Positions 10,775-33,951 of a DNA stretch of 64,000 nucleotides are shown piece by piece. Both the position numbers and the translations under genes were made by a program. The DNA is taken from contig JAIXWW010000011.1 in the NCBI GenBank assembly GCA_027491085.1, positions 433,151 to 497,150 on the forward strand, in the 5' to 3' direction. The notes beneath the pieces are model-generated. The model saw only the letters and a program-made list of their open reading frames with translations, was not told the origin of the DNA and made no database searches. The stretch's first letter is position 1. The number at the start of each line of letters is the position of its first letter. Origin of the DNA: Bacteroidota bacterium (lineage in GTDB: Bacteria; Bacteroidota; Bacteroidia; UKL13-3).

Positions 10775-10809
10775 GGCCTCATAGTTCAATGGATAGAATA
10801 GATGTTTCC
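10775..10809 (+). repeat. 35-nt partial copy of the tRNA-Arg(CCT) 5' half (island left boundary, att-like)
   Basis: Exact 35/35 identity with 33861-33895. Identity stops inside the anticodon loop. Confidence 0.8.
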
Positions 10810-14000: not shown

Positions 14001-14445
14001 AGTTTATTATCATATACAATAAATCTATTTAAGACTATTTTTCTTTGACCAGAACAATCCATTTTACAATTTAGAGTAGTTATTCAACTTTTAAAAAACA
14101 ACTCACCAGAATAAAGAAAATTGGTTGAAGGTACTTATAGTCTTGAGATAATATGTTAAAATATTTTTACATATAAATCTTTACTTTTTATTCCTAATCC
14201 TTATATTACAGCATACCTAGATATATTTGGTCTAAGGTATTGCTCCTTTTAGCTTATTTAACATACTTAACTAATATATAAATAGCTTAACTAGAACATT
14301 ACCACTAGAACCTTAAAGCTCTTTACTAGCTTGCTTCTAGGTATATTAATATAGGTCTTTAAATAAATATAATCTAGTATTATTCTAGTGTGTCTAGACC
14401 ATTTAATGTAAAGATGCTTTATTTATAAATTAACTATTTATTGGT

Positions 14446-14751
14446 ATGAGAAGTTTAAAACTAGTTGGTAATTCAATCTTTAACAAGATGATTGAAAATA
14501 ATTATTACCTGATAAATAATCACCTTCTATTCAAGTATTCTGGTGTTGAAATAGACCCAAACAATCGTAAAATAGTTATGGGTGAAGGTAAGTTCGTAAA
14601 TACATTAAATGGTAATTTAACAATGCTAGAAGACCCTTTAGAAAAAATTGAAATTATACCATTCAATCAGGTAAATACAATTCAATACATATCTTCAATT
14701 GATTTTGATGAACTATTAAATGATTCATACTATAACTACAATCAAATATGA
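14446..14751 (+). CDS. hypothetical protein
   Basis: ORF whose stop overlaps the start of the next ORF (ATGA), operon-like. Confidence 0.3.
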   Translation: MRSLKLVGNSIFNKMIENNYYLINNHLLFKYSGVEIDPNNRKIVMGEGKFVNTLNGNLTMLEDPLEKIEIIPFNQVNTIQYISSIDFDELLNDSYYNYNQI

Positions 14752-15676: not shown

Positions 15677-16065
15677 CTATTAAGGTTTTTGTGCTATAAG
15701 ACCAACTATATTTTATATGAAGTTAATTGTCTTTATTATTAGAAGACTAGAATAAGCATAGGTGGTCTTATTAGCACTTGAAAAATTTAATTTTTACTTA
15801 TTCCTATTGTATAAATAGGCAGTAATTCAGAAATTGTAAAGTAATCTCAATAAATAAAAATGCCTAAACTATTCTAGCCATTAATTCAAGGAAATTATTA
15901 AGGTAGGTTACTCATGAGTAAATTGAATTAGGGAGCCCCCCATAAGATAGGATACCCCCCTCTCCCCCTATTGATTGTTTGTTAATATGAGATTATGTTT
16001 AAAATTATTTTAACTGTATGGGTTCATATTTAGGTAGATTTTATATTACTTAACTATTTATCAAT

Positions 16066-16623
16066 ATGAATGCTTTTGAGTTTATCATCAACTATAAAAA
16101 ACTATTATCTATGATTGAGCAAGTGGCTCAACCTCAATTCCTGAAATACACATATAAATTAAGGAAGGAAAAACCTTGGTCTTTAATCAAATCTAATACT
16201 ACTTTCAACTCTGAATTAGAAGCTTTGGGGTTTGTATTTTCAAACGTCTTAAATTTGTTTTATGAGGATTTGAAAAACCTTGATTTTGACGATGATGAAT
16301 TTCTATTGTATGCTGATGATTGGTTTATGCAAGCAATGAACCTTGAATTTGGAAAGTCAAAAAATACCTTAAAGGATAACCCTTTAGTTTGGATAACTGA
16401 TTTATCTAGGGACACAAAAAGAAAGGAATTCAACTTTAAAATTGAAGTGTTTTATGATAAAAAAACTAAATCAGTTAAAAAACTAATGGTATCAGGGTTT
16501 AATAAGAAAACCAAAAAGCTTATAGGGTATTCAACTGCAATATTTTTAGGTGAGAATATTGATGATTTAATAAAAGAAATCAATGATATGGCTATTCTTA
16601 TTTTTAAAGAATATAAACCTTAA
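16066..16623 (+). CDS. hypothetical protein
   Basis: 185-aa ORF, no motif recognised. Confidence 0.35.
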   Translation: MNAFEFIINYKKLLSMIEQVAQPQFLKYTYKLRKEKPWSLIKSNTTFNSELEALGFVFSNVLNLFYEDLKNLDFDDDEFLLYADDWFMQAMNLEFGKSKNTLKDNPLVWITDLSRDTKRKEFNFKIEVFYDKKTKSVKKLMVSGFNKKTKKLIGYSTAIFLGENIDDLIKEINDMAILIFKEYKP

Positions 16624-17306
16624 ATCAATCGTTTAACTATTCCTGGACTAAACTCACAACCATTTCTTGTTTTATAACCATTCTCGTTGAGTAGTCTTGA
16701 TATTTGAGAATAATGAACATAACCATTCTTCATCTTAAAATGTTCAATAAATGTTTTAGCCATTTTCCAATTTGGATTTTCTTCTCTATTTCTTTTAACA
16801 GCAACTCTTCCCTTTGCTTTGGCTTCTTCAGTTAAGTTTTGAGGGGACCCAAGTTTTCGTGTTTTCTTTAATTCCTGTAAAGCACTTTTGGTTCTTTGTG
16901 AGATGAGTTCTCTTTCATATTGTGCCATAGTTCCAAAAATACCTAGCGTTAGTGTATTGAGTTCTGGAAGAGCCAAACAATGAAGTTTAACTCCTCTTCT
17001 ATGAATAGCGAATAAAAACTCTACTTCCCTACTTAATCTATCCAATTTTGTAAATAACAAAACATACCCATTCTTTTCGCATAAGTTAAGGGCTTTATCC
17101 AAACCAGGTCTTTGATTGTTCTTTCCGCTCTCTTGTTCTAAAATAGTATTTACCAACGAACCATTATTCCTTGATATAAAATCTAAAATCTGTGTTTGTT
17201 GTTCTTCTAATCCAAGATTTTGTTTTCCTGTGCTCGTTCTAACATAAGCTATATATTTTTCCATTTTCTGATCCTTTTTGCTAATGTAAGGATCCTTTTT
17301 GAACAA
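16620..17306 (-). CDS. serine recombinase (resolvase/invertase family)
   Basis: N-terminal catalytic domain YVRTSTGKQ (catalytic Ser) and LDRLSRE motif, C-terminal HTH. Likely true start is MEKYIAYV at ~17264. Confidence 0.85.
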   Translation of the reverse strand: MFKKDPYISKKDQKMEKYIAYVRTSTGKQNLGLEEQQTQILDFISRNNGSLVNTILEQESGKNNQRPGLDKALNLCEKNGYVLLFTKLDRLSREVEFLFAIHRRGVKLHCLALPELNTLTLGIFGTMAQYERELISQRTKSALQELKKTRKLGSPQNLTEEAKAKGRVAVKRNREENPNWKMAKTFIEHFKMKNGYVHYSQISRLLNENGYKTRNGCEFSPGIVKRLI

Positions 17307-17384
17307 TCTCTAAATGAGGATTTAAAAGTTGCTAAATATTCTGATTTTGCTCAATACATAAGGCAGTTTGAAAAGTTTTGGACA

Positions 17385-17415
17385 TAAAAAAAAGCAAGGA
17401 TTACTTGCTTTTTTT
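17385..17415. terminator. bidirectional hairpin terminator
   Basis: aaaaaaaagcaaggattacttgcttttttt: stem gcaag/cttgc with A-run and T-run on either side. Confidence 0.5.
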
Positions 17416-17422
17416 ACTTAGT

Positions 17423-17983
17423 TTATTTTGGAGATATTTTTCCTTCGTCATTAAAATACAAATCTTTTTTATTTTGCTTCTCTCTCATACGTTCCCTAAA
17501 ACCAACTGGCATTTTTAGAAACTCTGTTTCAAAAATAGAATCTCTTCCTTCTTCTAAGTCATTTAAAAATAAAGCCATTGGAAACTTTTTAAGAATACCT
17601 TTCTGAATTGCTTCAAGTGCTTTTTGTTCAATTATTTTGTTATCAATCCCTGCCTTAAAATCTTCAGTAGTTGCAACATAAACCATAATTTGATTTTTTT
17701 TTCCTTTATATGGAAAGGAAGATATTGCCCTAAAATATGGCTTGGGCTTTATTCCGTTTTTATCTTTTCTAGGTTCGGGATTTACTATTGAAATATTAAT
17801 TTTAGGTTCTAAATATGCCATCCACATTTCATAATTAGATTTTAAATATTCTAACTGAAGTGTTAATTTTTTAATATTTTCTTCCCTATCACTTATTTTT
17901 CGTTTATAGTAACTCATTAGCCCTGATTTTTTCTTAGATACAGGTGTCATTATAGTTTCATCCTTTAACTTATTTTTTTCCAT
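17423..17983 (-). CDS. hypothetical protein
   Basis: 186-aa ORF, charged and coiled-coil-like. Confidence 0.4.
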   Translation of the reverse strand: MEKNKLKDETIMTPVSKKKSGLMSYYKRKISDREENIKKLTLQLEYLKSNYEMWMAYLEPKINISIVNPEPRKDKNGIKPKPYFRAISSFPYKGKKNQIMVYVATTEDFKAGIDNKIIEQKALEAIQKGILKKFPMALFLNDLEEGRDSIFETEFLKMPVGFRERMREKQNKKDLYFNDEGKISPK

Positions 17984-18003
17984 ATTTTATACTTAAAAAT
18001 CAT

Positions 18004-18160
18004 ACATACGCAAATATATGATTATTTTATATATGTCAAAATGGAGGTAACAATAATTTAACAAATGTCCTTTAAGTCAGTGTTTAATGAATTTTATTAA
18101 TCATCAAAAATATTTCAAAATAAAAAAACATACATAAATATAAATTTTATTTGCGTATGT
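18004..18160. promoter_or_regulatory. 13-bp inverted repeat pair (plus a direct near-copy at 18128) upstream of the ParB-MTase gene
   Basis: acatacgcaaata at 18004-18016 and its reverse complement tatttgcgtatgt at 18148-18160. A third near-copy acatacataaata sits at 18128-18140. Confidence 0.5.
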
Positions 18161-18203
18161 TTATTATGTATTGTACTTTTGAAAACTCAAATTAGAAATA
18201 TTT

Positions 18204-19838
18204 ATGGCAAAAAAAGTAAAATCAGTAAGCATTTCGGATGCTGAATCCAAAAAAGAAAGTGGATTATCGGTTGAAGTCACCAATGAACTTATTATCTCTA
18301 GAGAAGAGGTTAATCCAAACAACAATTTATGCAGTCCCTGTAATTATGAAGGTATTAAACGAATTGAACTTGACAGAGAAATTAAATGGGTAAAAACAAC
18401 AGACTTAAAACCATCATCCCATCACATTGAGATTTATTCCGAAGAGAAGATTTTAGACGATGCTCTTATAAACTCAATAAAAAATAAAGGGATAATTACA
18501 CCTTTATTAATTACTTCTAACCATATTATTATTTCTGGAGTTAGGAGATTTAAAGTAGCACTATTGTTAAATATGGAGGTTGTTCCTGTAATTTACAATA
18601 CCAATGATGAATTAAATGTTGCTGATGTTGTATCCAGTAATATTAGTCGCATAAAAAAATATTCGGTTTTATATAAAGAGTACAAAGTATTAAAAAAAGC
18701 ATACGGCATTAGCCAAGGAACTAGAACAGATTTGGTTCATAAGGGAAAAAAATCTCAGGAAAAAATAAACACTATTTTAGGTGTTTCAAGAGCTACCATT
18801 GCACGACTTTGTAAAATAGAAAGATTAGCCTCTCAATTATTTAATTCAGATACGGAAAAGCTAAATGAAATTTGGTCGCAAGTAGATAATCCCAAAAAAG
18901 GAATAATGGCTGTTTTAAGGTATCTTACCAACATAAAACACGAAAGAAACAATTCAAATGGTGAAGTTGAAAATCTATTTGGAAATGGATATACCATTTA
19001 CAATTCATCATCAGCACTAATGAATGAATTGGATTCTAATACAGTTGATTTACATATTACAAGCCCTCCATATTGGGGCGGAATACGAAATTATAACCTA
19101 GGCGAAAATGAATTAGGTTGGGAAAGTAATGTTGATGATTTTGTAAAAAATCTTGTTGAACATTTTGAAGCTACTAGAAGGGTTTTAAAACCAACAGGTA
19201 GCTTGGTCGTAAATTTAGGTGATAGCGTTGATAAATCAAAAAATCATAATGCTCTAGCTCCATTCAGATTTGCTTTAAAAATGGTAGAAAAAGGTTGGCA
19301 TTTAGCAGGCACTTATATTTGGATGAAGCCAAGATTTACACCTTCAACACCTAAAAACAAACCAATTTCAACTTTTGAAATAATATTTCACTTTGGAAAA
19401 AAACCTCAATATGAATTTTATAAAGATTGGATGTCAAATCCTTCAGATCCAATCTATAATCCGCTGATATTTGGAAAACCAAATAAACCAAAATATTTAA
19501 AAGATATCTTTGATTTACGTGAAATAAATGAAGGGGGAATAATTAAATGGAACAGTTCAAATACAACCGAAATTAATAAGAAATGTAAAGAAAGAGGAAT
19601 AGAACAAAACCACAATGCAACTTTCCCTTTAATGATACCCTCTATTTTTATTAATCTAACTACAAAACCCGGTGATTTAGTTATTGATGGGTTTAATGGA
19701 ACTGCAAGCACAGGAGCTGCTTGTCAAGTATTAGGAAGAAACTACGTGGGATTTGAATTGAATAAGAATTACATATCAGTTTCCAAAGTTAGACTTGAAA
19801 GCATTGAAGAAGAATTAAACAATAAAATGGCAGCTTAA
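18204..19838 (+). CDS. ParB-like nuclease domain fused to DNA methyltransferase (N4-C/N6-A, beta-class-like)
   Basis: N-terminal ParB/Srx motif ISGVRRFKVA. Methyltransferase catalytic motif SPPY (HITSPPYWGG). AdoMet motif VIDGFNGTASTGAA. 544 aa. Confidence 0.85.
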   Translation: MAKKVKSVSISDAESKKESGLSVEVTNELIISREEVNPNNNLCSPCNYEGIKRIELDREIKWVKTTDLKPSSHHIEIYSEEKILDDALINSIKNKGIITPLLITSNHIIISGVRRFKVALLLNMEVVPVIYNTNDELNVADVVSSNISRIKKYSVLYKEYKVLKKAYGISQGTRTDLVHKGKKSQEKINTILGVSRATIARLCKIERLASQLFNSDTEKLNEIWSQVDNPKKGIMAVLRYLTNIKHERNNSNGEVENLFGNGYTIYNSSSALMNELDSNTVDLHITSPPYWGGIRNYNLGENELGWESNVDDFVKNLVEHFEATRRVLKPTGSLVVNLGDSVDKSKNHNALAPFRFALKMVEKGWHLAGTYIWMKPRFTPSTPKNKPISTFEIIFHFGKKPQYEFYKDWMSNPSDPIYNPLIFGKPNKPKYLKDIFDLREINEGGIIKWNSSNTTEINKKCKERGIEQNHNATFPLMIPSIFINLTTKPGDLVIDGFNGTASTGAACQVLGRNYVGFELNKNYISVSKVRLESIEEELNNKMAA

Positions 19839-20194: not shown

Positions 20195-21658
20195 ATGACA
20201 AAAGTATCAATCATCTTAATGCCACAAGGTAAAAACTCTAATACGGGTAGAATTTGTAAAATGATTTCAGAAAAAGGAAAAGTCCACAGGTTATCAATCG
20301 GATATACAATACCAATAGACGACTGGTGTGTTAAAACTAAAAGAGTTAAAAATACCAATTCAAATTCAACAATTATAAATTCAATCATAGAAAATATTAT
20401 GTCGGGAGACGTTACTAAACACAAAAAATATGAAGATTGTATTCTATGCTTTATGGAAAACGAGTTGGAATTAGGTCATTTAGATAAAACAATAAAATAT
20501 AGTACTTACAAAAAGTATAATACTATTGCAAAGTCTTTCAGAAAGGCAATGGTGAAATTGGAAATGCTCAAGATAACAATAAACGATGTTATAGGCCTAG
20601 AAAAACTAAAATCAATAATAAGTATCATCTCTATCAACGAAAGTAGAAATGGCAAAAGAAAAACCACCTTAAATAATTATTTGGTGGTCTTTTCTACATA
20701 TGTAAAAAAATGGTTTCAGAAGAATAACGGAAGTCCAACTGCTGATTTTAGCTTTATTCATAAAGAATCAAAAAAAGTGATACTCGGACACGCCAATTAT
20801 ATTACAAAAGATGAACTTACAATATTTGAAAATTATTATCCCAAAGGTATTAAAAATGGAACTATTCAAACAATTACTAAATCCATCTTTCTTAGCCAAT
20901 ATTATATCGGTGGTATAAGAATAAGCGACATTCTAACCCTTACAAATTCACAATTTAAAGCAAAAGGAATACTTATTAGAATGAGGAAAAATGGAGAAAC
21001 AAGAATCTATCCATATTCATTTGAACTCGTATTGGCATTAAGACCACTTTATCCCTACCAATATAACTCAGTAATTGAAAACTTAAATTTAGGGTCAATA
21101 AAATTACCTGCAACAATTGTAGCTGCAATGATTCGTTCTAATATAGAACTCCACAATTATAACTTAGAAGATATTGATAAAAAGATTAGTCAATTAGAAT
21201 ATTCATTATCACTTGAACACAAACAACTTGTTGATGAACTTGAAAGGTTAAAACAAATAATCAAAGGCTTAATTAAAGAAGAGTTTTTCAAACAAATACA
21301 AAACTTAACCGAAGGTTTTATCTTTCCATTGTTAGAATACGATATGTTCAAAAACCATTTAGATAGACCTGATTTATTTGACAAAGATTTAAGCTATGCA
21401 ATCCATAGAGCTACTTGTAAATATAACTCTAATCTGAAAGTCATTTGTAAAACAATAGGAATTAACCGAAAACTAACAAGTCATTCACCCAGACATTCAA
21501 TAGCTCTTCACTTAATGGAAAGGGGAGCAACCACACCCATCATTCAAGATGTTTTAGGACAAAGGAACCTTTCCTCAACGGCTGTATATCTTCAACAAAG
21601 ATTACCTTCCAATAATATTGGTGTGGGAATGGGATTGATACACGGAAGTAAACTGTAA
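20195..21658 (+). CDS. tyrosine-type site-specific integrase (Bacteroidota type with N-terminal arm-binding domain)
   Basis: C-terminal catalytic region HSPRHSIALHLMERG...LGQRNLSSTAVYLQ (R, HxxR, Tyr nucleophile). N-terminus KVSIILMPQGK is typical of Bacteroidota integrases. Confidence 0.9.
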   Translation: MTKVSIILMPQGKNSNTGRICKMISEKGKVHRLSIGYTIPIDDWCVKTKRVKNTNSNSTIINSIIENIMSGDVTKHKKYEDCILCFMENELELGHLDKTIKYSTYKKYNTIAKSFRKAMVKLEMLKITINDVIGLEKLKSIISIISINESRNGKRKTTLNNYLVVFSTYVKKWFQKNNGSPTADFSFIHKESKKVILGHANYITKDELTIFENYYPKGIKNGTIQTITKSIFLSQYYIGGIRISDILTLTNSQFKAKGILIRMRKNGETRIYPYSFELVLALRPLYPYQYNSVIENLNLGSIKLPATIVAAMIRSNIELHNYNLEDIDKKISQLEYSLSLEHKQLVDELERLKQIIKGLIKEEFFKQIQNLTEGFIFPLLEYDMFKNHLDRPDLFDKDLSYAIHRATCKYNSNLKVICKTIGINRKLTSHSPRHSIALHLMERGATTPIIQDVLGQRNLSSTAVYLQQRLPSNNIGVGMGLIHGSKL

Positions 21659-21682
21659 AACCTATTATAGATTTATAAGTAA
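21601..21682 (+). repeat. direct repeat copy 1 (integrase 3' end)
   Basis: ~82 bp, ~95% identical to 27831-27912. A further 15-bp match (cttcatatcatttga) follows after a 61-bp indel. Confidence 0.8.
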
Positions 21683-27830: not shown

Positions 27831-27927
27831 ATTACCTTCCAACAATATTGGTGTAGGAATGGGGTTGATACACGGAAGTAAACTGTATAACCTATTATAG
27901 ATTTATAAGTAACTTCATATCATTTGA
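27831..27927 (+). repeat. direct repeat copy 2: remnant of an integrase 3' end (no integrase ORF attached)
   Basis: Encodes ...PSNNIGVGMGLIHGSKL, matching the last ~19 codons of the integrase at 20195-21658, then a shared downstream segment. Confidence 0.8.
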
Positions 27928-33237: not shown

Positions 33238-33639
33238 GTGACAAAATATTATAATGTAACCTTGTGTATGCATATCGGCTTACGAATTAAGATTGCTAGA
33301 ATTAGTAAAGAACTTAAGCAAGAGGAGCTTGCAGAAATGATAAATAAAACACGCCCTCTCATTTCAAGTATAGAACAAACAGGTAAAGCCAGCCATTATA
33401 CATTAAAGAAAATATGTGAAGTTTTGGATTTAGATATCAATGAATTAGAGTCTTCAGTTGTATCCGAATCATCAGAATTAAACGTCAATCAACGTGAGCA
33501 ATTATTAAGTTTAAAAAATAGAATAAAAGAAATAGAAGAGGACAATGATAACTTAAGGTCACTTGTTTCTGCACAATCAGAATTAATAAAAAAACAAAAG
33601 GAATTCATTAATAAACAAAGTAAAAATCTTAAATTTTAA
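33238..33639 (+). CDS. XRE-family HTH transcriptional regulator with coiled-coil tail
   Basis: IGLRIKIARISKELKQEELAEMINKTRPLISSIEQ is a Cro/C1-type HTH. Sits adjacent to the island right end. Confidence 0.7.
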   Translation: MTKYYNVTLCMHIGLRIKIARISKELKQEELAEMINKTRPLISSIEQTGKASHYTLKKICEVLDLDINELESSVVSESSELNVNQREQLLSLKNRIKEIEEDNDNLRSLVSAQSELIKKQKEFINKQSKNLKF

Positions 33640-33860: not shown

Positions 33861-33932
33861 GGCCTCATAGTTCAATGGATAGAATAGATGTTTCCTAAAC
33901 ATTTGATATGAGTTCGATTCTCGTTGAGGCTA
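33861..33932 (+). tRNA. tRNA-Arg (anticodon CCT)
   Basis: Manual cloverleaf: acceptor GGCCTCA/TGAGGCT (G1-U wobble), D-stem GTTC/GAAT, anticodon stem GATGT/ACATT with loop TTCCTAA (U33, anticodon CCT, A37), T-loop TTCGATT. Confidence 0.8.
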
Positions 33933-33951
33933 CTATTATTAATTAGAGTAC

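What the first reader, a model, noticed from the sequence alone, without database searches (positions are those of the whole stretch)
17990..18203. 13-bp inverted repeat plus a third motif copy just upstream of the ParB-methyltransferase gene: invertible switch or operator array
acatacgcaaata (18004-16) and tatttgcgtatgt (18148-60) are perfect reverse complements flanking 131 bp of AT-rich DNA that ends 43 bp before the MTase start. A near-copy acatacataaata (18128-40) lies 7 bp from the right repeat, forming a near-palindrome. A serine recombinase of the invertase/resolvase family is encoded about 700 bp away (16620-17306). In Bacteroidota, serine invertases flip IR-flanked promoters. A phase-variable orphan MTase would act as an epigenetic switch. 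The alternative is operator sites for a dimeric repressor.
Basis: partly seen in the sequence, partly recalled or inferred. Interest (0 to 1): 0.65.

Follow-up and report, generated by a model that had tools for sequence, protein, structure and literature searches.

The report
Paired operator-like dyads at divergent promoters
The inverted repeat upstream of the ParB-methyltransferase gene is real, but it is most likely part of two palindromic protein-binding sites sitting on two back-to-back promoters of a mobile island, which is ordinary repressor-operator wiring rather than a flip-flop DNA switch.

Summary
It is incomplete: a fourth, degenerate half-site (18024-18036) makes two ~33-bp near-palindromes, O1 (18004-18036) and O2 (18128-18160), 124 bp apart centre to centre.

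A perfect 13-bp inverted repeat alone is expected by chance (mean 1.12 per surrogate window). The repeat plus a third copy was never reached (0/300).

The dyads lie on the only two full Bacteroidota-type promoter matches in the region. O1 covers the -7 box and spacer of the leftward promoter, which serves a 186-aa gene. O2 covers the -33 of the methyltransferase promoter, whose -7 box lies outside the repeat.

Comparison with related islands favours operators:
- Half-sites are conserved while spacers change.
- A mirror-pair substitution keeps O2 symmetric but breaks the long-range repeat.

It disfavours an inverton run by the neighbouring serine recombinase:
- The recombinase is 86-98% identical in seven loci, while the repeats vary or are absent.
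- All six near-identical assemblies have one orientation.

The binder is unknown. The basic 186-aa protein is favoured only weakly. Inversion is not excluded without read data. This is an ordinary regulatory feature of low to moderate interest.

The parts
18004..18016 (+). Half-site H1 (ACATACGCAAATA), the strong half of dyad O1 and the left arm of the reported inverted repeat. It overlaps the TTTG of the leftward -7 box and the predicted start-site region.
18024..18036 (-). Half-site H2 (reverse complement ACATATATAAAAT), the degenerate partner of H1.
   Evidence: (I1); 100% conserved in L004 and L010-L013
18004..18036 (.). Dyad O1, a ~33-bp near-palindrome covering the -7 box and spacer of the leftward promoter, up to its -33.
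18128..18140 (+). Half-site H3 (ACATACATAAATA), the weaker half of dyad O2 and the 'third copy' of the finding.
18148..18160 (-). Half-site H4 (reverse complement ACATACGCAAATA), the strong half of O2 and the right arm of the reported repeat. It contains the -33 TTTG (18150-18153) of the methyltransferase promoter.
18128..18160 (.). Dyad O2, a 13-7-13 near-palindrome (11/13) lying over and upstream of the -33 of the methyltransferase promoter. Its centre is 124 bp from the centre of O1.
18011..18040 (-). Predicted leftward promoter P_L for the 186-aa gene: -33 TTTG (18040..18037), an 18-nt spacer, and -7 TATATTTG (18018..18011).
   Evidence: one of 11 full matches in 64 kb. Consensus from PMC8748976 and PMC2483708. 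Predicted, not mapped.
18150..18181 (+). Predicted methyltransferase promoter P_R: -33 TTTG (18150-18153), a 20-nt spacer, and -7 TACTTTTG (18174-18181).
   Evidence: The same architecture is found in L001, L005 and L007 despite diverged spacers.
17423..17983 (-). 186-aa basic protein of unknown family, transcribed divergently from the methyltransferase gene. It is the only gene that changes together with the repeats, and is a weakly favoured candidate binder.
18204..19838 (+). ParB_N + helix-turn-helix (HTH) + N6/N4 DNA methyltransferase (544 aa). No restriction-enzyme gene was recognised among the neighbouring ORFs scanned.
17387..17415 (.). Hairpin flanked by A and T runs, terminator-like on both strands. 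It ends the 186-aa gene and separates it from the recombinase gene.

Best explanation
The repeats are four half-sites (consensus about ACATAYRYAAATA) arranged as two dyad-symmetric sites, O1 and O2. They lie in the 220-bp control region between two divergently transcribed genes of a ~23-kb integrative island. The island is inserted at tRNA-Arg in an uncultured Bacteroidia genome.

Each dyad sits on a core element of one Bacteroidota-type promoter. O1 covers the -7 box, spacer and start region of the 186-aa gene's promoter. O2 covers the -33 of the ParB-methyltransferase promoter.

The most likely mechanism (inferred) is that a dimeric DNA-binding protein occupies both dyads and blocks RNA polymerase, repressing both genes. 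The dyads are 124 bp apart, about 12 helical turns, so the two bound dimers may cooperate. If the binder is the 186-aa product, this is negative autoregulation coupled to methyltransferase repression. That wiring would give a burst of methyltransferase when the island enters a cell without repressor, followed by shut-down.

Shown: the sites, their position on consensus promoters, and their pattern of conservation.

Inferred: protein binding, the identity of the binder, and the direction of regulation.
For: Four half-sites forming two 33-bp dyads.

The ensemble is beyond chance: 0/300 and 0/200 surrogates.

Promoter placement:
- Only 11 full TTTG-N17-21-TAnnTTTG matches occur in 64 kb. Two of them are the correctly oriented divergent pair here, each overlapped by a dyad.
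- The methyltransferase promoter architecture recurs in diverged relatives.

Conservation pattern:
- Window versus L004: 15 differences in 220 bp, with 0 of 52 half-site positions changed against 3 of 14 spacer positions (Fisher p = 0.008 against spacers, 0.025 against all other positions).
- In L010-L013, O1 is unchanged. O2 carries a mirror-pair substitution (18133 C>T with 18155 G>A) and a change (18154 C>T) that creates a new symmetric match. The dyad therefore stays at 11/13 in the same register (12/13 in the best register), while long-range H1/H4 identity drops to 11/13. The rough neutral expectation for such a mirror pair is 0.026.
- A palindrome over the -33 of the methyltransferase promoter recurs with different sequence in L005 (p = 0.015), L001 (0.09) and L007 (0.10). 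The combined p is 0.0013, or 0.004 if L008 is counted as a failure.

Candidate binder:
- The repeats change only together with the cassette 17411-18279, which carries the 186-aa gene. The flanking recombinase and methyltransferase DNA stays 82-89% identical.
- The 186-aa protein is basic (pI 9.6). It is predicted to have a 45-residue N-terminal helix followed by a beta-beta-beta-alpha unit with invariant Tyr, Arg and Lys residues.
- Some relatives are tandem duplications, compatible with a unit that works as a dimer.
Against: - No binder is demonstrated.
- The 186-aa protein matches no Pfam, PHROG, NCBIfam or PADLOC model and no structure at a significant level.
- One relative (L009) sits in an unrelated operon without a methyltransferase.
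- The promoters are consensus matches, not mapped start sites.
- The conservation tests rest on only three closely related lineages. Co-replacement of gene and spacer in L001 may reflect linkage only.
- A multi-copy motif is significant only in the window lineage: L005 p = 0.08, and the others are not significant.
- In-silico inversion regenerates a complete promoter facing the methyltransferase gene, so inverton geometry is not excluded.
Confidence: 0.6

Rival explanations
1. Inverton. A site-specific recombinase, the neighbouring serine recombinase or another enzyme, inverts 18017-18147 between the 13-bp arms. Because the arms carry the TTTG of the leftward -7 box, inversion would move that promoter to face the methyltransferase gene and leave the 186-aa gene without one. 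The result would be a phase switch.
For: - A perfect 13-bp inverted repeat flanks 131 bp.
- A serine recombinase gene lies about 700 bp away. Its best PHROG match is 'DNA invertase'.
- In-silico inversion recreates the full promoter TTTGACATATATAAAATAATCATATATTTG on the + strand at 18124-18153, in tandem with the fixed methyltransferase promoter.
- Invertible promoters, and invertons near orphan methyltransferases, are known in Bacteroidales (PMC8748976, PMC11741434).
Against: - The recombinase is 86-98% identical across seven islands, including its C-terminal region. The repeat is nevertheless absent in L001-L003, different in L005, and not recognisable in L007 and L008.
- The recombinase scores 44 bits on the Mpi invertase model, whose cut-off is 272.
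- It is not adjacent to the repeat. A gene and a terminator intervene.
- The methyltransferase keeps a fixed promoter in either orientation.
- All six near-identical assemblies from different samples are collinear.
- In L010-L013 selection kept the local dyad of O2, not the arm-to-arm identity.
- O2 is 33 bp long with its axis on a base pair. Serine-recombinase crossover sites are symmetric about a central dinucleotide (established knowledge, not tested here).
Confidence: 0.08
2. The dyads are parS- or OB-like sites for the ParB-HTH part of the methyltransferase itself. In one version this is simple autorepression, as with M.SsoII/M.Ecl18kI or KorB. In another the dyads are loading sites from which the ParB-type clamp carries the methyltransferase along the island's own DNA.
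For: - The methyltransferase carries ParB_N (28 bits) and a ParB-type HTH region (TIGR00180, residues 78-223, 41 bits).
- The inner half-site core GCAAAT/ATTTGC and the HTH (ILGVSRATIARL...) are both conserved across loci.
- ParB-family KorB represses at palindromic operators (PMC11790492).
- M.Ecl18kI and M.SsoII bind an operator between divergent genes (PMC2760811, PMC3978073).
- ParB-fold fusions to N6_N4 methyltransferase domains are common in phages and prophages, and their function is unknown (PMC12704722).
Against: - L001-L003 have an almost identical HTH and a methyltransferase 82-84% identical, but lack the ACATAC... half-sites.
- In L010-L013 the HTH and methyltransferase domains are deleted in frame. 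O1 is nevertheless intact and O2 keeps its symmetry.
- The conserved TTTGC core is also simply the -33 promoter element.
- The TIGR00180 score (41 bits) is below its cut-off (58).
Confidence: 0.12
3. There is no dedicated function. The similarity of the two arms comes from two AT-rich promoters that share TTTG-containing elements, plus chance or a local duplication. No protein recognises the repeats.
For: - Perfect 13-bp inverted repeats arise by chance about once per window, and the other one in this window is chance.
- Palindromes of 10-11 matches out of 13 are common in AT-rich spacers.
- Both strong half-sites contain a promoter TTTG.
- The regions 17982-18023 and 18110-18151 are a 71% direct repeat (D1).
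Against: - The three-copy ensemble was reached in 0/300 and 0/200 surrogates.
- Half-sites are conserved over spacers.
- A mirror-pair substitution is present in L010-L013.
- A dyad over the -33 recurs in diverged loci.
Confidence: 0.15

Closest known systems
Methyltransferase-linked operators in divergent control regions of restriction-modification systems (M.SsoII / M.Ecl18kI regulatory site; C-protein C-boxes)
   Same: A palindromic site in the short non-coding region between a DNA methyltransferase gene and a divergently transcribed partner gene. The site overlaps promoter elements and sets expression of both genes (PMC2760811, PMC3978073, PMC3874152).
   Different: - No restriction enzyme was recognised. 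The divergent 186-aa family has no invariant acidic residue and no family match.
- There is no C-protein-type small HTH gene at the locus.
- There are two dyads rather than one, with 13-bp half-sites.
- The methyltransferase's own HTH does not track the site.
Bacteroidales invertible promoters (invertons found with PhaseFinder; Mpi and local invertases)
   Same: Short inverted repeats flank about 130 bp of AT-rich DNA that holds most of a -33/-7 promoter. The locus is next to a gene on a mobile element and has a recombinase gene nearby (PMC8748976, PMC11741434).
   Different: - The recombinase does not co-vary with the repeats and is not adjacent.
- The downstream methyltransferase has a fixed promoter outside the repeat.
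- Only one orientation was seen in six assemblies.
- Each arm is itself a dyad.
KorB-OB operators of plasmid RK2 (a ParB-family repressor)
   Same: A ParB-fold protein encoded on a mobile element, and palindromic sites placed at or just upstream of the upstream promoter element (PMC11790492).
   Different: - Here the ParB fold is fused to a methyltransferase.
- Binding is untested.
- The comparative data argue against the ParB-HTH as the specificity determinant.
Exchangeable immunity-type modules of temperate phages (a repressor gene plus its operators between divergent promoters). This comparison rests on established knowledge and was not tested here.
   Same: - Multiple dyad operators of graded strength lie over divergent promoters.
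- The regulator gene and its operators are replaced together as one cassette between otherwise similar elements. Here 17411-18279 is replaced in L001-L003.
   Different: - The candidate regulator has no HTH or other recognised DNA-binding fold.
- The controlled gene is an orphan methyltransferase, not a lytic operon.
- There are only two sites.

Membership tests
Invertible promoter (inverton) | Inverted repeats flank a short segment | tested here: met
   Perfect 13-bp arms at 18004-18016 and 18148-18160, 131 bp apart. The pair alone is within chance expectation.
Invertible promoter (inverton) | The promoter is carried inside the invertible segment, so that flipping turns the downstream gene on or off | tested here: inconclusive
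   The leftward promoter's -33 and spacer are inside the segment, and its -7 box straddles the arm. In-silico inversion re-forms it facing the methyltransferase gene. The methyltransferase's own promoter (-7 at 18174-18181) is outside and unaffected. So the methyltransferase would not be switched off.
Invertible promoter (inverton) | Both orientations are present in populations or among isolates | tested here: not met
   The window, L004 and L010-L013 (six assemblies, three sequence variants, different samples) are all collinear. Power is low, because assemblies show only the majority state and no reads were available.
Invertible promoter (inverton) | A cognate recombinase is associated with, and co-varies with, the repeats | tested here: not met
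   The recombinase is 86-98% identical in seven loci. The repeats are absent in L001-L003 and differ in L005, L007 and L008. A gene and a terminator separate the recombinase gene from the repeats. The Mpi model scores 44 bits against a cut-off of 272.
Serine-invertase crossover sites (hix/gix type) | Dyad-symmetric sites of even length centred on a 2-bp crossover dinucleotide that is identical in both sites | tested here: inconclusive
   O2 is 13-7-13, that is 33 bp with its axis on base 18144. The register of O1 is ambiguous (13-7-13 or 13-6-14). The central bases differ between O1 (TATGATT) and O2 (TAAATTT). The criterion comes from established knowledge, and cleavage positions cannot be tested here.
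Repressor-operator control of divergent promoters | Dyad-symmetric sites overlap core promoter elements | tested here: met
   O1 lies over the -7 box and spacer of the leftward promoter. O2 lies over the -33 of the methyltransferase promoter. The promoters are consensus predictions.
Repressor-operator control of divergent promoters | Half-sites are under stronger constraint than spacers, and symmetry is maintained through change | tested here: met
   0/52 half-site positions changed against 3/14 spacer positions (p = 0.008). L010-L013 carry a mirror-pair substitution plus a symmetry-creating change. The sample is small.
Repressor-operator control of divergent promoters | A sequence-specific DNA-binding protein occupies the sites and changes transcription | not testable with these tools
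   This needs EMSA or footprinting and reporter assays. The candidate 186-aa protein has no recognised DNA-binding fold.
C-protein / C-box control of restriction-modification systems | A small HTH controller gene and a restriction endonuclease gene at the locus | tested here: not met
   No HTH controller lies next to the site. The only XRE-type gene is at 33238-33639, 15 kb away, and it does not track the repeats: it is present in L001, which lacks them. No nuclease was recognised.
ParB-parS / KorB-OB | A ParB-fold protein with an HTH whose specificity matches a palindromic site | tested here: inconclusive
   ParB_N and an HTH are present in the methyltransferase. The HTH is nearly invariant while the outer half-site sequence differs or is absent. 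The sites persist where the HTH is deleted. Binding is untested.

The most novel reading that the evidence does not exclude
The dyads are loading sites (parS-like) for the ParB-CTPase-fold methyltransferase. The clamp would close at O1 and O2 next to its own gene and slide, methylating the island's DNA preferentially in cis just after entry into a new host. The same occupancy would shut off both promoters. This would give ParB-methyltransferase fusions, which are widespread in phages and prophages and have no assigned function (PMC12704722), a mechanism.
Probability: 0.07. Interest if true: 0.7.

Novelty: new member of a known kind. Interest (0 to 1): 0.25.

Why it matters
If the operator reading holds, this is a compact control module. 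It consists of two dyads over two divergent Bacteroidota promoters, and it governs an orphan ParB-methyltransferase on a small family of tRNA-Arg integrative islands in uncultured Bacteroidia.

It would be a worked example of how such anti-restriction-type methyltransferases are kept silent and released on transfer. It could also assign a DNA-binding role to a rare protein family that has no known fold. That family has 23 cluster representatives (one per 50%-identity cluster) among 1.84 billion.

The finding also shows that 'inverted repeat plus nearby recombinase' is weak evidence for phase variation in AT-rich genomes. Perfect 13-bp inverted repeats arise by chance about once per 64 kb here.

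Tried and rejected
- Frpo-like single-strand promoter or hairpin: the 220-nt spacer folded as ssDNA gives z = -0.7 and -1.2 on the two strands, which is not structured.
- Known RNA families: none at E <= 1 in 17000-18600.
- Function of the 186-aa protein:
  - Pfam, PHROGs, NCBIfam and PADLOC gave nothing.
  - The AF2 model (pLDDT 76) found no match at E <= 0.001 in the PDB or BFVD libraries with Foldseek. Weak dsRBD-like, LptE-like and single-strand-annealing-protein-like hits had TM <= 0.27.
  - A profile search against PDB sequences found only a coiled-coil hit.
- More loci:
  - Genome contigs gave nothing in two scans.
  - Viral contigs gave nothing.
  - Metagenome contigs gave one locus in an unrelated context.
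  - Plasmid and phage collections gave nothing.
  - The contigs of the 55-63% identical relatives P0123 and P0124, and of P0004, had no retrievable DNA.
- The exact window proteins could not be looked up by the look-up of encoding contigs.
- XRE regulator (33238-33639) as binder: rejected as unlikely. It is present in L001, which lacks the repeats, and was not seen on L004, which has them.
- A degenerate O2 pattern scan of viral contigs hit only two giant-virus MAG contigs, presumably unrelated AT-rich palindromes.
- Motifs in other loci: no significant three-copy motif in L001, L007 or L008.

Full report
**What is there**

- ACATACGCAAATA lies at 18004-18016.
- Its perfect reverse complement lies at 18148-18160, with 131 bp between.
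- A two-mismatch copy, ACATACATAAATA, lies at 18128-18140, 7 bp from the right arm.
- The right arm ends 43 bp before the ATG of a 544-aa ParB_N + N6/N4 methyltransferase (18204-19838).

With it the repeat finder extends the arms to 33 nt (18004-18036 and 18128-18160, 76% complementary). Each arm is itself a near-palindrome: O1 is ACATACGCAAATA-TATGATT-ATTTTATATATGT and O2 is ACATACATAAATA-TAAATTT-TATTTGCGTATGT. The dyad centres are 124 bp apart. The strong half-sites are the outer ones.

**Chance**

- In first-order Markov surrogates of the window, a perfect 13-bp inverted repeat with a 20-200 bp gap appears in 66% of cases (mean 1.12).
- The window has two such repeats. The other one, 14398/14601, has one arm inside a coding region and falls to 9/13 in a relative, so it is most likely chance.
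- Arms with at least 4 G/C occur in 14% of surrogates. Adding a third copy with at most 2 mismatches gives 0 of 300.
- A three-copy 12-mer score inside the 220-bp spacer is reached by 0 of 200 surrogates.
- The pair alone proves nothing, but the ensemble is non-random.

**Context**

- The window comes from an uncultured 'Bacteroidia bacterium' MAG.
- A 35-bp perfect direct repeat (10775-10809 = 33861-33895, the 5' part of tRNA-Arg-CCT) brackets a ~23-kb low-GC island.
- Its conserved backbone recurs in every related contig fetched. The order is: a 202-aa gene (-), a 185-aa gene (+), a small serine recombinase (-), a small basic protein (-), the ParB-methyltransferase (+), a small ORF, and a tyrosine integrase (+).
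- The repeats lie in the 220-bp spacer between the divergent 186-aa gene (17423-17983, -) and the methyltransferase gene.
- A terminator-like hairpin (17387-17415) separates the 186-aa gene from the recombinase gene.

**Promoters**

- Bacteroidota promoters use a -33 TTTG and a -7 TAnnTTTG (PMC8748976, PMC2483708).
- The full pattern TTTG-N17-21-TAnnTTTG occurs 11 times on both strands of the 64-kb window. Two of those matches are a correctly oriented divergent pair in this spacer.
- P_L runs from 18040 to 18011 on the minus strand. P_R runs from 18150 to 18181 on the plus strand.
- O1 covers the -7 box, spacer and start region of P_L. The strong half-site of O2 contains the -33 of P_R.
- The P_R -7 box (TACTTTTG, 18174-18181) lies outside the repeat.
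- The same P_R architecture is found in L001, L005 and L007, although the rest of the spacer is hardly alignable.
- These promoters are consensus predictions, not mapped start sites.

**Comparative evidence**

- L004 (methyltransferase 81% identical, small protein 94%):
  - It has 15 differences from the window in the 220-bp spacer.
  - None falls in the 52 half-site positions, and 3 fall in the 14 dyad-spacer positions (Fisher p = 0.008 against spacers, 0.025 against all other positions).
- L010-L013 (small protein 92% identical; four assemblies):
  - O1 is identical to the window.
  - O2 has four half-site substitutions. 18133 C>T and 18155 G>A are a mirror pair, and 18154 C>T creates a new symmetric match.
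  - The dyad therefore stays at 11/13 in the same register (12/13 in the best register), while H1/H4 identity drops to 11/13.
  - The rough neutral expectation for such a mirror pair is 0.026.
  - So selection appears to keep each local dyad, not the long-range repeat.
  - In this lineage the methyltransferase is reduced by an in-frame deletion to a 145-aa protein that keeps only the ParB-N part.
- L001-L003:
  - The flanks are 82-89% identical in DNA, but 17411-18279 is replaced. That segment holds the small gene, the spacer and the first 25 methyltransferase codons.
  - The small protein is only 25% identical, and the ACATAC... motif is absent.
- A palindrome over the -33 of the methyltransferase promoter recurs with different sequence:
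  - L005: 11/13, p = 0.015.
  - L001: 10/13, p = 0.09.
  - L007: 10/13, p = 0.10.
  - The combined p is 0.0013, or 0.004 if L008, which has no recognisable promoter, counts as a failure.
- A multi-copy motif is significant only in the window lineage.

**Tests of the inverton reading**

Evidence against:
- The serine recombinase is 86-98% identical in seven loci, including its C-terminal region. The methyltransferase ranges from 47 to 84% and the small protein from 21 to 94%. An enzyme this constant should have constant sites, yet the repeats vary or are missing.
- The recombinase is a generic small serine recombinase. It has the Resolvase N-terminal domain and scores 44 bits on the Mpi model, whose cut-off is 272.
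- All six near-identical assemblies are collinear.
- The methyltransferase promoter is untouched by an inversion.

Evidence that keeps it open:
- Because the arms carry the TTTG of the P_L -7 box, in-silico inversion re-forms the complete P_L facing the methyltransferase gene and removes it from the 186-aa gene. The geometry of a switch therefore exists.
- Assemblies report only the majority state.
- Without reads, inversion is unlikely but not excluded. I put it at about 0.08.

**Who binds**

- The XRE regulator at 33238-33639 does not track the repeats.
- The methyltransferase HTH is nearly invariant in loci with different or no dyads. The dyads also persist where the HTH is deleted.
- The 186-aa gene is the only gene that changes together with the repeats, though this may be linkage only.
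- What is known about the 186-aa protein:
  - It is basic (pI 9.6).
  - Its model (pLDDT 76) has a 45-residue helix and then a beta-beta-beta-alpha unit, and the family alignment shows invariant Tyr, Arg and Lys residues.
  - It has no invariant acidic residue.
  - Its family is tiny, and some members are tandem-duplicated.
  - No family or fold match is significant.
  - One relative sits in an unrelated operon.
- I favour it as the binder only weakly, at about 0.35.

**Mechanism, comparison and novelty**

- The best-supported reading is a repressor-operator module. A dimeric protein occupies O1 and O2, which lie about 12 helical turns apart, and occludes both promoters. This would give autoregulation plus methyltransferase repression, and by inference a burst of methyltransferase on entry into a naive cell.
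- It works like several known systems: the regulatory sites of M.SsoII/M.Ecl18kI (PMC2760811, PMC3978073), C-boxes (PMC3874152), KorB-OB (PMC11790492), and phage immunity cassettes.
- It is not a member of any of these families by the tests listed in the membership table.
- ParB-fold fusions to N6_N4 methyltransferase domains are known and enriched in phages and prophages, with no assigned function (PMC12704722).
- The feature is a new member of a known kind, and its interest is low to moderate.

Noticed in passing
window 10775-10809 and 33861-33895 (tRNA-Arg-CCT at 33861-33933): A perfect 35-bp direct repeat, equal to the 5' part of tRNA-Arg, brackets a ~23-kb low-GC island. These are likely the att sites of the integrative element that carries the finding.
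   Followed up: partly
window 21601-21682 and 27831-27912: An 82-bp direct repeat (95% identical) copies the 3' end of the integrase gene and brackets about 6.2 kb of extra genes. In L004 the integrase gene is followed after about 100 bp by the tRNA-Arg region, so this looks like a nested insertion or cargo gain.
   Followed up: partly
window 14398-14410 and 14601-14613: This is the only other perfect 13-bp inverted repeat with a long gap in the window (ACCATTTAATGTA / TACATTAAATGGT, 190 bp apart). Its right arm lies inside the 101-aa ORF, and the pair falls to 9/13 in L001. It is probably chance.
   Followed up: yes
L010 3342-3779 (also L011, L012): In this lineage the ParB-methyltransferase is reduced by an in-frame deletion to a 145-aa protein. 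It keeps residues 1-138 (the ParB_N part) joined to the last few residues. The variant occurs in assemblies from several samples, so the island persists without methyltransferase activity.
   Followed up: partly
window 16620-17264 and the homologous genes in L001, L004, L005, L007, L008 and L010: The serine recombinase is far more conserved (86-98% amino-acid identity, mean column identity 95%) than its neighbours (methyltransferase 47-84%, small protein 21-94%). Its role in the island is unknown.
   Followed up: partly
window 15690-15777 (spacer between the 202-aa and 185-aa genes): The inverted repeat TGTGCTATAAGACC ... GGTCTTATTAGCAC, with an invariant CAGAATAAGCATAG block, is conserved in all seven loci around a variable 50-70 nt interior. 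C-rich and G-rich blocks lie further on. It is a better candidate than the finding for a recombinase site, an origin or a 5'-UTR structure. It is collinear in all loci.
   Followed up: partly
window 17270-17280 and 17291-17301: An 11-nt direct repeat, GATCCTTTTTG, occurs twice 21 bp apart, immediately upstream of the recombinase ATG (17264). It is nearly invariant across loci. A covarying short palindrome lies next to it (17306-17323 in the window). Together they may be the recombinase's own control region.
   Followed up: no
L005 4842-4852 and 4925-4935: The distant relative L005 has its own perfect 11-bp inverted repeat in the same spacer (TGTGTGTTTTT / AAAAACACACA, 72 bp apart). Its dyad over the methyltransferase -33 is AAACACACAATTA-N8-TATTTGCGTGTTT. 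The three-copy score is borderline (p = 0.08).
   Followed up: partly
proteins P0136, P0138, P0139, P0140, P0142 and P0144 (relatives of window 17423-17983): The 186-aa protein family has only 23 cluster representatives (one per 50%-identity cluster) among 1.84 billion proteins. Six of them are 270-295 aa long and carry two copies of the domain. No member has a Pfam annotation.
   Followed up: partly
L014 1396-1429 and L015 5372-5405 (giant-virus MAG contigs): A degenerate O2-type palindrome pattern matched exactly in two giant-virus metagenome-assembled contigs. These are presumably unrelated AT-rich palindromes.
   Followed up: no
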